A stretch of DNA of 61,401 bases, the filler included, from Dugesia japonica (lineage: Eukaryota), in NCBI GenBank assembly GCA_001938525.1. It is 5 parts of 5 records of this genome, joined end to end, with 100 filler letters (N's around TTAATTAATTAA, not from the genome) between each part and the next. Parts side by side here need not be neighbours in the genome. Positions count along the whole stretch, not along the records: positions 24,361 to 35,715 come from MQRL01627549.1; 4 more parts are not named here. One strand, given 5' to 3'. Position numbers and translations under genes: made by a program. Positions 24,361-35,715 of this stretch are shown here, piece after piece (the stretch's first letter is position 1; the number at the start of each line of letters is the position of its first letter). Under the pieces are notes generated by a model. The model did no database searches. It saw only the letters and a list, made by a program, of their open reading frames with translations, and was not told where the DNA came from.

Positions 24361-24483
24361 GCATGTAAAATATAAAATTATTAAACCGGAAAAAAATCAC
24401 GTGGCTTTTCTCGCATTAAAAATATAAAATAAATTCTCGCATTTAAAATAAAAAATAAAATTATTAAATTTTTTCTATAGAAA

Positions 24484-25205
24484 ATGAGTACACAAAATAA
24501 AGTTGTTCCAGAGAAAATAACTACTGAGAAAATAACTACTGAGAAAATAACTACTGAGAAAATAACTACTGAGAAAATAACTACTGAGAAAAAACAAAAA
24601 AAAAAAAACAAGAAGAACTAAGTCCAAAAAGTATTATGGATTTAATAATTAGTGTTGTTGATATTAAAAATGATGATGTAGATATGATAGTAAATTATAC
24701 AAAATGTGATTTTACTAAAAAAGTTTCTGAACATAATTTAAATTATCTTAATCAATTTTATAAAGAAGCAGATACTTTACCTATAAGCGATGAAAATAAA
24801 ATGATACTTAAAAAAAGTGGGACTTTGTTAATGAAAATATTAACAAGTGATCAATGTAAAGGTTTATTGCTTGAATTAATAAAAGGAAAATATAATAATG
24901 CTAAAAAAACTATTGAAGAATATAAGAAAAAGTTTCAATTAGAAAGAGATGAACATAATGCTCTTTTAATGAAATATAATGAAAAACCAAAACCCAAAAT
25001 TGCTGATTTTATTAATATTGAATTTAAACCAGTATTAGTAAAAGGTGAATATTTACCTATAAAATCTGGTGATATTATTAAATTATATGAATCATTATCA
25101 GATGATCATGATACACTTAATGAACTTTCTGTAGATTATTATGTACCAATATCTACAGAAGGAATTAAATCAATTGCAACCGCAGAAGCTATAATAGATT
25201 TTTAA
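24484..25205 (+). CDS. Maverick hypothetical protein with EKITT repeats and a coiled-coil-like segment; 1-nt frameshift in an A13 run
   Basis: The 189-aa ORF at 24636 is open upstream to the A13 run (24596-24608); one extra A would join it to ATG 24484. Confidence 0.65.
24511..24592 (+). repeat. 15-bp tandem repeat x5 (GAGAAAATAACTACT), encodes EKITT
   Basis: Five perfect copies in frame with ATG 24484. Confidence 0.95.
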
Positions 25206-25208
25206 GAA

Positions 25209-25559
25209 ATGGACGCAGTTTTTTATAGAATGTTAAGTGATTATAATTTTAAAACTGGCTCTATAAAAAATTTTTCTAAAATAAATAATATCAATGAAAA
25301 AACTGTTAAAAAATATTTAAAACAATGGAATATTGAATATAACACTAGAACATGGAATCCATCTAGAAATCTACAAAGAAATTCAAATGGTAGTTTTATA
25401 TCTGCCATCGATCGTTTTGAACCCATTCAATATGAAAATAAAAAACCTATTGTTATTTCTTTAGATGTGCAAAATAAAAAACCCATTGTTAATAAAATTA
25501 ATTATGATGAATTAGGAGAAATGATGAAAAAAATCATACAGTATGATAACATAACGTAA
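25209..25559 (+). CDS. Maverick hypothetical protein, possible N-terminal HTH
   Basis: 116-aa ORF 3 nt after the previous stop; SIKNFSKINNINEKTVKKYLK has HTH-like spacing. Confidence 0.6.
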   Translation: MDAVFYRMLSDYNFKTGSIKNFSKINNINEKTVKKYLKQWNIEYNTRTWNPSRNLQRNSNGSFISAIDRFEPIQYENKKPIVISLDVQNKKPIVNKINYDELGEMMKKIIQYDNIT

Positions 25560-25654
25560 GATAACACAATAGTAACACAATAGTAACACAATAGTAAGAT
25601 AAAATAAACATAGAGCCGAAATAATACACTAAAATATTACTATAAGAAACAGAC

Positions 25655-25849
25655 ATGAAAAGAATAATGGTTAAATATGATCTTTGTAAAAATCAAAAAA
25701 TAACAGGTGATCAATTAAGAAAAATTATGAATGAAATAGAAAATAAAAAAGAATTAACTGATAAATATACTCGTGTTAAAGTTCCACATGAATATAAAAA
25801 CAAGATTAAAAGAGTTTATGTAAAATTTATCTCTAATAAAGAGACATGA
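25655..25849 (+). CDS. small basic Maverick hypothetical protein
   Basis: 64-aa ORF whose stop overlaps the MCP start (ATGA). Confidence 0.5.
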   Translation: MKRIMVKYDLCKNQKITGDQLRKIMNEIENKKELTDKYTRVKVPHEYKNKIKRVYVKFISNKET

Positions 25850-27168
25850 TAGATTTAGATTATAATACAGAATTTTCACATACAGCAATTAAAAATGATA
25901 TTTTAAAAATCTCACCGTCATCAGGTTCAATTAGTAATTTAAATGCTAATGGTGATATTGTATTTCAAAGTTTGCAATCTACAAATCCGTTGGACCTATG
26001 CAATTCATTATTATACTTTAAAATTAAAATAACAATACCAGCAGATTTAAAAGACAAAATCACCCTGGAAAATAATTTCTTTCCAAGTTTATTTAAATTA
26101 ATGGGATTAACACTCGGATCTACTCATATAGAAACTATAAACGATCCAGGTGTAATTTCTACAATGTTAAATTTTATATCTACAACTGAAACCTTTAAAA
26201 AAGAATACGGACAATTATCAGGATGGATGCCAGATATTAATAAAGGAGATACCGATGTAAAATCATGGGAAAGTAATCTTGGATATTATAACAGAAAAAA
26301 ACTTTATTCAACAGGAAAATTTGAAGGTTACTTTCAATTAAGAAATTTATTTGGATTCATGCAAAATTATAATCGGCTGTTATATAATACAATGATAGAA
26401 TTTACATGTAACCGCCAAATAGAAAATAAATTAATATTCTTTGGTGATGCTGATGAAAAAGCAGAAGTAAAATTAGAATTAGAAAAATTAGAATTTCACA
26501 TTCCAGAACATAGATTATTACCAAGAAAAGAATTACTTCTCCTAGAAAGAATTTCAACAAATAAACCAATTAAAGTTACATTTTTAAATCGGCTATCTGC
26601 AAAATCAAGTTTAGCTGATGAAAGTACTTATTCAATTAAAATTAGTTCTCTAGCATATCAACCTAGATATATTTTAATTTGCATAAAAGATCCAAAAATT
26701 GATTTTAAAATTAATAATAATTTATTTATTCAGAAAACTACAATAACACCAGCAGTTGTTGCACCAGCAGTTGCAGTTCCAATAACTTCATATTTAAAAG
26801 GTATCCAGTTACAATTAAATAATACCTATTATCCAATCAATAAATTAGACTTTGACGTCTCAGAAAATGCAATGGCTTATCCATATACACAATACATAAA
26901 TTGTTGTCGCGAATTCCTAACAGAACCACAATTATCATTAATGGATTTNNNNNNNNNNTATCCAATGTTTTGTTTTGATGTCAGTGCACATGATGATAAA
27001 ATGAATATTAATAATGTTGATGTCACACTTCATATTACAAAAGATGCAGGTTTTAAAGGAACAATTTACTGGTGCATTCTTGAAGAAAAACATGTTGAAA
27101 TGAAACTTGCAAATAATAAAATTGTTTTAGTTGAAAATGTAAGAGGTATTGATATAACATCTAAATAA
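25846..27168 (+). CDS. double jelly-roll major capsid protein (Maverick PY / hexon-like)
   Basis: 440 aa; ITLENNFFPSLF...IETINDPGVISTM, QPRYILI, LNNTYYP and PMFCFDVS match conserved Maverick MCP blocks. Confidence 0.88.
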   Translation: MIDLDYNTEFSHTAIKNDILKISPSSGSISNLNANGDIVFQSLQSTNPLDLCNSLLYFKIKITIPADLKDKITLENNFFPSLFKLMGLTLGSTHIETINDPGVISTMLNFISTTETFKKEYGQLSGWMPDINKGDTDVKSWESNLGYYNRKKLYSTGKFEGYFQLRNLFGFMQNYNRLLYNTMIEFTCNRQIENKLIFFGDADEKAEVKLELEKLEFHIPEHRLLPRKELLLLERISTNKPIKVTFLNRLSAKSSLADESTYSIKISSLAYQPRYILICIKDPKIDFKINNNLFIQKTTITPAVVAPAVAVPITSYLKGIQLQLNNTYYPINKLDFDVSENAMAYPYTQYINCCREFLTEPQLSLMDXXXXYPMFCFDVSAHDDKMNINNVDVTLHITKDAGFKGTIYWCILEEKHVEMKLANNKIVLVENVRGIDITSK

Positions 27169-33808: not shown

Positions 33809-33818
33809 TTTTCTTCCT

Positions 33819-34292
33819 TTATGGATTTTTCTTTTCCTTCTTTTCTAATATTGAATTATAAAGATCTAACATTTCATTTATAATAGTATCAAAATCAACA
33901 TATTGTTGCCCTCCTTCGGCCTTTATGGCTTGTGGTTTATGGATTTTATATAAAAAATAAATACATAGGATTCCACATATTTCAGTGTTAAAATGTTGCA
34001 CTTGAATTTCATTATATTTTTTTACACTCGGGATTTGTTTTAATGGTTTTAAACCAAAAGAATCAAAGTAGTATCCTTTAATGTAAGCAACCCAATGTGT
34101 TCCATTTTGATTTGAATTTTGATAATTAAAAATATAACATTTTCTAGGTGATATTTTAAATCTTTCATTTTTCATGTAAATCTCTAAATCTAAATCAAAA
34201 AAGTCAGCAATTGAATATAAATCAAAATTTGTTGTTGTTGAGATTCCAAATGTTTTTAAAAAATCTAATAAACAATAGTTCTGGTCGCTCAT
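33819..34292 (-). CDS. adenain-like (adenovirus-type) cysteine protease
   Basis: GTHWVAY (His), YFDSFG (Asp), VQ (oxyanion Gln), ICGILCIYFL (Cys). Confidence 0.95.
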   Translation of the reverse strand: MSDQNYCLLDFLKTFGISTTTNFDLYSIADFFDLDLEIYMKNERFKISPRKCYIFNYQNSNQNGTHWVAYIKGYYFDSFGLKPLKQIPSVKKYNEIQVQHFNTEICGILCIYFLYKIHKPQAIKAEGGQQYVDFDTIINEMLDLYNSILEKKEKKNP

Positions 34293-34340
34293 TTCTTCGC
34301 TATTTTCTATAATCTTTATTTCAGCACTTCGTTTTCAGCT

Positions 34341-35105
34341 TTATAATCGATACTTACGCAGATGAGCTAAAATTGTAATTGTTTCTTGGTTAAAATCTAT
34401 AGTGTTAAAATTTCCATCTACGATGTTAAATTTAAAACTGTCNNNNNNNNNNNNNTTAATTTTAGAGTAAATTGCTGGAGATGGTCTTTCAACTATTTTA
34501 TATCCAAATGGTACAGTATTTATTGGAAATTAATATAATAAATTAATTTGTTTAGTTTCTTTGTTGTTGTTGTTGTTGGTTGTTGGCCTTGTGGTTGTTG
34601 CATAATTACCTTTAACAATATTACAAGTTATATTTATCGCATTGATATTTGAAATGTCAATTTTAGCATCTGAATAATATTTTCCAGGTTCATATTTTCC
34701 AGGTTTAAATCCGAGAATCATATGAAAGAATGATTTGGAATCAAATTCTAAAGTGTTTTTAGTTAATATTTTAATGTTACATTTAGATGTTGCAAGATCA
34801 GGTGTAATTTCAAGATGTTTATCTAAACGTTTTGAAATTTCTTTTACTTCATAAGATCCGGGTTCTAGAGTTTTAATTAAGACTTTATTTCCTTCTTTTA
34901 TAATTTTTTTATTGTTGTCTTCATCCTTTATTTGTTCAATTCCGTTGATAATAAATTTATTATTTAAATTGGTAATGTTAAATATAATATTGTAACATGA
35001 AAAATATAACAATCCAAGTTCATATTCNNAATCTAATTTTATCGGATAATCTAAATTTACTTTTAAATCTTGTTCTGTTCCAACTACTAAGAATTGATGA
35101 GACAT
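34341..35105 (-). pseudogene. minor capsid protein / penton (single jelly roll) with premature TAA at 34530-34532
   Basis: LDYPIKL..YELGL, FNIT..NNKF, LEPGSYEV, ILGF, INITCNIV; after the stop the same frame gives FPINTVPFGYKIVERP...IDFNQETITILAHLRK*. Confidence 0.88.
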
Positions 35106-35107
35106 TT

Positions 35108-35715
35108 TTACTTGAAATATTTTGACTTATATTTTTTATAAATAATATCAGATAATAAACCTTTAGATTTTAATTTCTTACATAGAGATTTAATTTCAGA
35201 TGATAAATTATTATGTCCAGATTTTACAGCTGAAATCAATAATGTTAACTTTTCAAATAATGCAATTGGATTCTTCGCGCTTGTGGCTTTATGGGTTTTC
35301 CTAGATTTGTCAAGACCTTTTCCTTTTATTTTATTTAAAGAAGCATAATATAAATCAGTAATAGGTGGTTTTACCAAATCGTGATATGCACTGATATTTT
35401 TTTTTAATTCTTGGTTTGTTGATAAATTTAAATTTTCTGTTTTTCCAAAAATTATATCTATTAATATTTTATCAAATGCANNNNNNNNNNNNNNNTCATG
35501 ATAATAACCATAACCATCTCTTTCATAAAAATATATATCATTTTCATTATTAGGAAATTTAAATGATTTGAAACCTTTTTTATTAATATCTGTTACAAAA
35601 ATTGTTGGTGTTGTTAATTCTGTTAATTTTTTATCTAAAAGATAATCTTTACCAATTACATATGGTTTTATATTATCTTTCTTAAATATTTCTAATAATT
35701 CTTTGGTTGTGTTGT
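35108..35715 (-). CDS. Maverick PZ-like (putative core) protein, 5'-truncated by a gap
   Basis: Frame open from the gap; IKGKG followed by NPIALFEKLTLLISAVKSGHN...EI...L...G matches the DPNELxxRLxLLxxxxxAGN C-terminal block. Confidence 0.75.

What the first reader, a model, noticed from the sequence alone, without database searches (positions are those of the whole stretch)
24361..35715. Endogenous Maverick/adintovirus with the full virion-morphogenesis gene set
Seen: an intronless, tightly packed block (ATGA overlap, several 0-10 nt gaps) of two convergent gene arrays meeting at ~29650, inside an otherwise decayed-TE landscape. MCP, penton, ATPase, protease and integrase motifs are all recognisable, plus about six ORFs I cannot assign. 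Established: this gene set defines Mavericks/polintoviruses. Inference: a recently active, probably uncatalogued viral lineage of this host.
Basis: partly seen in the sequence, partly recalled or inferred. Interest (0 to 1): 0.75.

Follow-up and report, generated by a model that had tools for sequence, protein, structure and literature searches.

The report
Maverick virus with phospholipase-integrase fusion
This is a broken copy of a very abundant virus-like Maverick element in a eukaryote (likely animal) genome; its phospholipase and integrase form one gene in many relatives, with a conserved joint that the element's own protease likely cuts, which would load the integrase into virus particles as retroviruses do.

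Summary
The Maverick/Polinton reading is right. The capsid gene folds as a double jelly roll, and ATPase, protease, integrase and a penton-family gene lie in two convergent arrays. 'Recently active' is not supported for this copy: it has stops inside two genes and a frame break, and most relatives in the same organism are only 90-95% alike. The block is one contig between two scaffold gaps, so polymerase, terminal repeats and host junctions are not visible.

They are one protein in 102 of 120 listed homologues. A G-x-G or G-G motif sits at the joint in 93 of 102, against 15 of 5100 control windows. It fits the sites cut by the mavirus protease, and six stand-alone PLA2 genes stop exactly at the predicted cut. 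I infer a protease-processed polyprotein that delivers the integrase (about 60%). Eight literature searches found no description of the fusion; Repbase and preprint supplements were not seen. The penton fold remains untested.

The parts
24261..24360 (.). scaffold gap (N44-TTAATTAATTAA-N44 filler); left limit of the contig
24484..24621 (+). 45-aa ORF with a 15-nt tandem repeat; probably the start of the next ORF, out of frame across an A-run (inferred)
24636..25205 (+). 189-aa ORF of unknown function
   Evidence: no family above cut-off
25209..25559 (+). 116-aa ORF of unknown function, same frame as the previous ORF, one stop between
25655..25849 (+). 64-aa basic ORF; its stop overlaps the MCP start (ATGA)
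25846..27168 (+). [quoted passage not shown]
   Evidence: PF21738 E 2e-14; model pLDDT 85, pTM 0.87; Foldseek to SGIV, PBCV-1, mavirus and Sputnik capsid proteins, E 7e-14 to 4e-12
27170..28540 (+). zinc-finger-like N-terminus + PLA2 + retroviral-type integrase in one frame, no chromodomain; interrupted in this copy by one stop at 27512-27514
   Evidence: 102 of 120 listed homologues carry both domains in one protein; uninterrupted in L004
27644..27655 (+). conserved hydrophobic-G-x-G motif at the PLA2/integrase joint (second copy 27662-27673); predicted maturation-protease site
   Evidence: stand-alone PLA2 genes end at this position
28570..28896 (+). 108-aa acidic ORF overlapping the ATPase start by 83 nt
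28814..29584 (+). A32/FtsK-type packaging ATPase; last 72 codons are N; Walker A departs from the motif kept in 4 of 4 related ATPases checked
   Evidence: PF04665; 48% identity to L004 ATPase
29696..30472 (-). 258-aa ORF of unknown function (open frame extends to 30646)
   Evidence: Atlas lead DUF3102, score 0.91 with 117 of 256 features shared, weak
30647..30913 (-). 88-aa acidic ORF, same frame as the next ORF downstream, one stop between
31089..31616 (-). 175-aa ORF with a hydrophobic middle; conserved in the complete element L018
   Evidence: BLASTP E 1e-11, 25% identity
31617..33808 (-). long fibre-like gene (label inferred) with three ~175-aa tandem repeats; frame break near 32,500
   Evidence: repeat spacing 516-524 nt; piece-to-piece BLASTP E 1e-35 and 1e-17; adenovirus fibre-head Pfam only E 0.078; Atlas blank
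33819..34292 (-). adenain/Ulp1-type cysteine protease, catalytic motifs present
34341..35105 (-). penton-family (minor capsid) gene, in-frame stop at 34530-34532; fold not tested
   Evidence: homologues lie beside MCP in L001, L004, L017, L018, L019
35108..35715 (-). conserved ORF cut off by the gap; G-x-G motif before its helical C-terminal part, as in L003 and L004
35716..35815 (.). scaffold gap; right limit of the contig

Best explanation
This contig is the capsid-and-integrase part of a mutated, likely germline-integrated copy of an abundant Maverick/Polinton element, whose phospholipase A2 and integrase share one reading frame and are predicted to be cut apart by the element's own protease. 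Shown: double jelly-roll capsid, ATPase, protease and integrase genes; one PLA2-integrase protein in most listed homologues; a conserved G-x-G/G-G motif at the joint; breaks in this copy. Inferred, with odds: endogenous decaying copy 0.85; missing polymerase and terminal repeats lie in the unassembled gaps 0.75; the stop inside PLA2-integrase is decay of an ancestral fusion 0.93; the joint is a protease site 0.6. Mechanism for the active family (inferred): the fusion is made as one precursor and packed into the particle through its PLA2 part; the maturation protease cuts at GX|G; the freed PLA2 helps the particle cross the endosomal membrane, as proposed for parvoviruses; and the freed integrase travels with the DNA and inserts it in the next cell, in the logic of retroviral Gag-Pol.
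For: Capsid. Endogenous, high-copy: about 31,000 Logan contigs lie on the 11.4-kb block in each of three DNA runs from three studies (32,241, 31,314 and 30,605). Pieces identical to this copy occur in all three at depth 5-9, while summed depth over core genes is 28,000-87,000 (not a copy number). Decay; in run X1 the contigs are 12% at 99+, 26% at 95-99, 51% at 90-95 and 11% under 90 alike. Fusion: 97 of 120 listed homologues carry both Pfam domains, 102 of 120 by catalytic motifs. At DNA level it is in frame in 6 of 11 distinct loci where PLA2 directly precedes integrase, and L002 is broken at a different codon than the window. Joint motif: 93 of 102, against 15 of 5100 windows from the integrase core, followed by a spacer of 2-73 residues. 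The same motif separates PLA2 from a pX-like tail in unfused P0350 and recurs in other conserved ORFs of the window, L003, L004, L005 and L018. Six of six distinct stand-alone PLA2 loci with a readable end stop exactly at the predicted P1 residue, as do 6 of 27 short-tailed representatives. The mavirus protease cuts GG|X and GX|G, and mavirus particles contain the integrase (PMC6048507, passages).
Against: No cleavage was measured. The adenovirus consensus needs M/I/L at P4 (PMC7998265, passages); the window copy has it, but 61 of 87 homologues have lysine there. The homologue counts come from a search with the fusion itself and from related sequences, so they are neither unbiased nor independent. 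The six stand-alone loci come from only two genome bins, and one search has a second peak (7 proteins) eight residues past the site. The fusion is not obligatory: only 17 of 150 PLA2 representatives show an integrase part, though many look truncated. The complete 15.6-kb element L018 has the two genes overlapping in different frames with an integrase start codon of its own, and L020, L038, L057 and L059 keep them apart. No host junction, terminal repeat or polymerase is visible. The assembly is N-rich, so some breaks could be sequencing errors; the rows shown do not cover the two stop positions.
Confidence: 0.6

Rival explanations
1. The fusion is real but stays uncut: G-x-G is only the flexible end of the PLA2 domain, and the two activities act in one chain.
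For: P4 is mostly lysine, unlike the adenovirus consensus. The motif is also kept in PLA2 proteins with no integrase behind it (47 of 81). Nine of 102 fusions lack it.
Against: Stand-alone PLA2 genes lack the motif and stop exactly where the cut would fall, so the domain does not need it. The same motif marks domain borders in unrelated ORFs and matches the mavirus protease sites.
Confidence: 0.25
2. The element is a polymerase-less, non-autonomous derivative that relies on helper Mavericks.
For: There is no polymerase sequence in the 61-kb window. Group 2 Maverick-Polintons vary in their replication genes (10.64898/2026.06.19.733378, section 5).
Against: Both contig ends are scaffold gaps and the last ORF is cut by the gap. 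A relative with a 43%-identical MCP carries a protein-primed polymerase (L001).
Confidence: 0.15
3. The copy is intact and recently active, and the breaks are errors of a low-coverage assembly.
For: There are nine N runs inside the contig. MCP, protease and integrase core are open, with catalytic motifs.
Against: At many positions nearly all laid depth in three runs reads another letter than this copy, and most relatives are only 90-95% alike. The breaks fall in several separate genes.
Confidence: 0.1
4. The contig is a free or contaminating virus wrongly scaffolded into host DNA.
For: No host-element junction is visible.
Against: Pieces identical to this copy occur at depth 5-9 in runs of one organism from 2014, 2015 and 2025 (one run may be the assembly's source). 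GC content (0.23-0.25) matches the flanks (0.26). The genes carry disabling stops.
Confidence: 0.05

Closest known systems
Maverick/Polinton elements of animals (class Polintoviricetes); group 2, where a phospholipase is common
   Same: Double jelly-roll MCP, minor capsid family, A32 ATPase, cysteine protease, RVE integrase, intronless genes in two convergent modules, and a mostly degraded state in host genomes (PMC8097293, passages; 10.64898/2026.06.19.733378, section 5).
   Different: Polymerase, terminal repeats and target-site duplication are not visible here. PLA2 and integrase are one gene. The group was assigned by the phospholipase only, not by phylogeny.
Alpha adintoviruses with PLA2X (Starrett et al., PMC8502044; Buck et al., PMC11071296)
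   Same: Parvovirus-like PLA2 with intact calcium-loop and catalytic motifs; retrovirus-like integrase; adenain.
   Different: There PLA2 is followed by a pX-like domain and the integrase is a separate gene with a C-terminal chromodomain. Here PLA2 is followed by the integrase, which has no chromodomain. Spodoptera Mavericks also have separate PLA2 and integrase-chromo ORFs (PMC5803895, passages).
Mavirus virophage maturation (Born et al., PMC6048507)
   Same: A clan CE protease cutting GG|X and GX|G; integrase and a processed lipase-like protein found in particles.
   Different: Mavirus integrase and lipase are separate genes; the lipase is an alpha/beta hydrolase, not a PLA2; MCP identity to this element is about 10%.
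Retroviral Gag-Pol polyprotein (recalled, not from a call)
   Same: Integrase carried into the particle as part of a precursor with a virion protein and released by the viral protease (inferred here).
   Different: Unrelated structural proteins and protease; no evidence for a programmed frameshift here.

Membership tests
Maverick/Polinton (Polintoviricetes) | [quoted passage not shown] | tested here: met
Maverick/Polinton (Polintoviricetes) | [quoted passage not shown] | tested here: inconclusive
   11 homologues; conserved beside MCP in related elements; no Pfam or PDB sequence match; no structure model obtained; stop inside this copy
Maverick/Polinton (Polintoviricetes) | A32/FtsK packaging ATPase | tested here: met
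   PF04665 above cut-off; Walker A degenerate in this copy, C-terminus in N
Maverick/Polinton (Polintoviricetes) | adenovirus-like cysteine protease | tested here: met
   PF00770 below cut-off; catalytic motifs present; 42% identity to the L001 protease
Maverick/Polinton (Polintoviricetes) | retrovirus-like (RVE) integrase | tested here: met
   PF00665 above cut-off; D-D-E positions located
Maverick/Polinton (Polintoviricetes) | [quoted passage not shown] | tested here: inconclusive
   none in the window, but both contig ends are gaps; present in relative L001
Maverick/Polinton (Polintoviricetes) | terminal inverted repeats and target-site duplication | tested here: inconclusive
   none found; ends are scaffold gaps; relative L018 has 123-nt terminal repeats
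Maverick/Polinton (Polintoviricetes) | two gene modules on opposite strands facing the centre | tested here: met
   described for vertebrate Mavericks in PMC8097293; the gene allocation differs
Adintovirus as defined by Buck et al. (PMC11071296) | integrase with C-terminal chromodomain | tested here: not met
   no PF00385 in the window protein or L004, present in L018; 69 of 102 fusions end within 12 residues of the last integrase motif
Adintovirus as defined by Buck et al. (PMC11071296) | polymerase with N-terminal OTU-like domain; hexon reciprocally BLAST-recognisable to the reference viruses | not testable with these tools
   polymerase absent from the contig; reference sequences not held; the BFVD structure matches shown are only 7-13% identical
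Alpha adintovirus PLA2X gene | PLA2 followed by a pX-like C-terminal domain | tested here: not met
   PLA2 is followed by the integrase; no match to the L004 pX-like ORF in the window
Clan CE viral protease substrate | GG|X or GX|G site (mavirus protease) | tested here: met
   motif in 93 of 102 joints; cleavage itself not tested
Clan CE viral protease substrate | M/I/L at P4 (adenovirus protease consensus) | tested here: not met
   met in the window copy, but L in only 6 of 87 homologues and K in 61

The most novel reading that the evidence does not exclude
A broad, undescribed clade of animal Mavericks makes its integrase as the C-terminal half of a virion phospholipase polyprotein that the viral protease cuts at a GX|G site: a DNA-virus counterpart of Gag-Pol. 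The fusion is then a built-in sign that these 'transposons' move as particles carrying their integrase, and the GX|G motif gives the maturation sites of their core proteins.
Probability: 0.45. Interest if true: 0.62.

Novelty: new variant of a known kind. Interest (0 to 1): 0.42.

Why it matters
As flagged, the block is ordinary: decayed Mavericks are the rule (96% of vertebrate loci, PMC8097293), and Maverick expansions in low-GC animal genomes are in print (10.64898/2025.12.11.693146). The fusion matters more. Maverick particles have not been observed (PMC8097293, abstract listing), and how the integrase would reach the next cell is open. A virion-entry enzyme joined to the integrase through a likely maturation site gives a concrete mechanism and a cheap biochemical test, and it warns annotators that PLA2 and integrase ORFs split by a stop are often one gene.

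Tried and rejected
Programmed -1 frameshift from PLA2 into integrase: considered because L018, L019 and L065 are shifted by -1. Rejected, since L071 is shifted by +1, L019 shifts further downstream, six loci are in frame, and one protein cluster shows all three frames at an A-run (3, 4 and 2 of 9 members), which fits decay or homopolymer error.

Stop-codon read-through at 27512-27514: rejected, as L002 is broken at another codon and L004 is open.

Terminal repeats: the only long inverted pair at the contig ends is the gap filler; blastn of the block against the window finds only the internal repeat; no AGTAGT end motif.

Expression: no RNA holder listed. In a quarter of RNA run X16, 103 reads were laid, none 99% alike and 102 only partly on the block; this is not informative.

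Empty searches: viral contigs with the integrase or the MCP alignment; PDB sequence search with the MCP and penton alignments; Pfam for the penton alignment; PHROGs for all but the integrase; Rfam and tRNA scans; Atlas gave weak or no leads.

Host: not established. The planarian literature searches served only to see whether high-copy Mavericks in low-GC animals are known.

The integrase tree (130 sequences, FastTree) puts the window in a chromodomain-less group of fused proteins; it holds no named reference viruses, so it does not classify the element.
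Full report
Observation. The block 24361-35715 is a single 11,355-nt contig between two 100-nt scaffold-gap fillers. It holds a + strand array (24484-29584) and a - strand array (29696-35715) facing each other, with AT skew +0.18 and -0.16. The ATGA overlap is between a 64-aa ORF and the MCP, and gaps of 0-10 nt occur five times. The longest stop-free frame is 466 aa against at most 130 in 100 shuffles.

Gene identities. Pfam gives PF21738 for 25846-27168 (E 2e-14), PF08398 (PLA2) for 27170-27514, PF00665 for the integrase, PF04665 for the ATPase and a sub-threshold PF00770 for the protease. 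The MCP model from an 18-sequence alignment has pLDDT 85 and pTM 0.87. It matches iridovirus, PBCV-1, mavirus and Sputnik capsid proteins at E 7e-14 to 4e-12; the BFVD matches shown are 7-13% identical. The penton candidate has 11 homologues and relatives beside the MCP in L001, L004, L017, L018 and L019. It has no Pfam or PDB sequence match and no structure model was obtained, so its fold is open. The MCP search gave 23 relatives, the best 55% identical.

What is missing. tblastn with the polymerase of L001 finds nothing in the window, and blastn finds no terminal repeat. The last ORF is cut by the right gap. L001, with a 43%-identical MCP, has a protein-primed polymerase, and L018 is a 15.6-kb element with 123-nt terminal repeats. 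The simplest reading is that the rest lies in the gaps. A polymerase-less derivative is not excluded; an earlier scan note on another genome (e1-7276656, unchecked) describes one.

Endogenous and decaying. Fourteen of 24 listed runs hold the stretch or part of it, 13 of organism A and one of organism B. Laid on the contig, three DNA runs of three studies give 32,241, 31,314 and 30,605 contigs. Pieces identical to this copy occur in all three at depth 5-9, while summed depth over core genes is 28,000-87,000. The tool warns that this is no copy number, and one run may be the assembly's source, but the contrast means a very abundant family. In X1, 12% of contigs are 99% or more alike, 26% are 95-99, 51% are 90-95 and 11% are under 90. 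This copy has in-frame stops at 27512-27514 and 34530-34532, a frame break near 32,500 in a three-repeat fibre-like gene, and a Walker A motif that departs from 4 of 4 related ATPases. The rows shown do not cover the two stops, so assembly error is not excluded for them. 'Recently active' is not supported for this copy; the family may hold younger ones.

The fusion. PLA2 and integrase are in one frame with one stop between. A search with the X-read-through protein gave 227 hits. Of the 120 listed, 97 carry both Pfam domains (counted from the table) and 102 carry the PLA2 catalytic motif followed by the integrase motif; one is annotated from the coral Oculina patagonica. The search favoured fused forms. 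An unbiased look with a PLA2 domain alone gave 745 hits, and of the best 150 only 17 show an integrase part, though many others look cut short. In DNA, of 11 distinct loci where PLA2 directly precedes the integrase, six are in frame (L002, L004, L017, L037, L073, L075) and five are shifted in mixed ways (L018, L019, L065, L071, L078); four more keep the genes apart. The window's integrase has no chromodomain, which Buck et al. list as distinctive of adintoviruses (PMC11071296, passages). I therefore file this as a Maverick-type element, not as an adintovirus in that strict sense, although a 2026 preprint treats the names as synonyms (10.64898/2026.06.19.733378, section 5).

The joint. A hydrophobic-G-x-G or -G-G motif lies at the end of PLA2 in 93 of 102 fusions, against 15 of 5100 same-length windows from the integrase core; a spacer of 2-73 residues follows. 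A G-G...D motif precedes PLA2 in 41 of 58 proteins long enough to test. These sequences are related, so the counts show conservation, not independent events. The motif also ends PLA2 before a pX-like tail in P0350, and G-x-G recurs in the conserved ORF at 35108-35715 and in ORFs of L003, L004, L005 and L018. Six of six stand-alone PLA2 loci with a readable end, from two genome bins, lack the motif and stop exactly at the residue after which GX|G would be cut. Six of 27 short-tailed representatives do too, with a second peak of seven at +8 (98 of 149 could be anchored). The mavirus protease cuts GG|X and GX|G, and mavirus particles contain the integrase and a cleaved lipase-like protein (PMC6048507, passages). 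The adenovirus consensus also wants M/I/L at P4 (PMC7998265, passages), which the window has but most homologues do not (K in 61 of 87).

Mechanism. For the active family I infer a precursor that is packed through its PLA2 part and cut by the maturation protease, so that PLA2 aids entry (proposed for parvoviruses in PMC8502044) and the integrase arrives with the genome. The domains, the frame and the motif are shown; packaging, cleavage and roles are inferred (about 60%). The Gag-Pol comparison is recalled. The main rival is an uncut fusion (25%).

What is in print. Eight searches and passages of PMC8502044 (part 2 of 6 of the text, passages, and its one held supplementary file, cut when stored), PMC3671162, PMC11131425, PMC11071296, PMC5803895, 10.64898/2026.10.13.758929 (56), PMC8097293, 10.1101/2023.08.22.554363 (103), 10.64898/2026.06.19.733378 (104, 107), PMC11161782 and PMC6431247 describe PLA2 and integrase as separate genes, or do not link them; none of the passages mentions a fusion or a cleavage motif. 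Maverick expansions in Dugesia are reported (10.64898/2025.12.11.693146, passages); the host here was not established, and 'animal' is an inference from the named homologues. The scan's own index held no finding on the fusion or this sequence.

Verdict. The element is a new, decayed member of a known kind. The PLA2-integrase polyprotein with a likely protease site is an apparently undescribed variant that can be tested directly. Interest 0.42.

Noticed in passing
window 31617-33808 (-): Fibre-like gene with a coiled N-terminal half and three diverged ~175-aa repeats (33-39% identical); no family or Atlas match. It may be a receptor-binding protein with tandem heads.
   Followed up: partly
window 29696-30646 (-): Unassigned ORF; the weak Atlas lead is DUF3102/ParB-associated phage proteins.
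   Followed up: partly
window 24511-24592: Perfect 15-nt tandem repeat (5.5 copies) coding EKITT, followed by an A-run where the frame changes.
   Followed up: partly
window 37894-38442 and 42774-43333 (-): Two decayed retroelement-type integrase fragments in the neighbouring contig; not part of the Maverick.
   Followed up: no
window 7232-7919, 20415-20813, 48331-49055: Fragments that look like mariner/Tc1 transposases and a Penelope-type endonuclease (labels recalled, not tested).
   Followed up: no
window 8606-9944: Near-identical direct repeats about 800 nt apart (97-100% over 69-211 nt), possibly a recent duplication or an assembly overlap.
   Followed up: no
L018 1-15597: Complete Maverick-type contig with 123-nt terminal repeats in IMG/VR; PLA2 and chromodomain integrase overlap in different frames; one ORF carries eight G-x-G/G-G motifs.
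   Followed up: partly
L026-L070: Of 45 loci returned from prokaryotic genome bins, most carry integrases 30-40% identical to this family, some beside protease or penton-like genes: likely eukaryote-derived contamination of the bins.
   Followed up: no
L015 7583-10690: Metagenome element with two tandem MCP-like genes.
   Followed up: no
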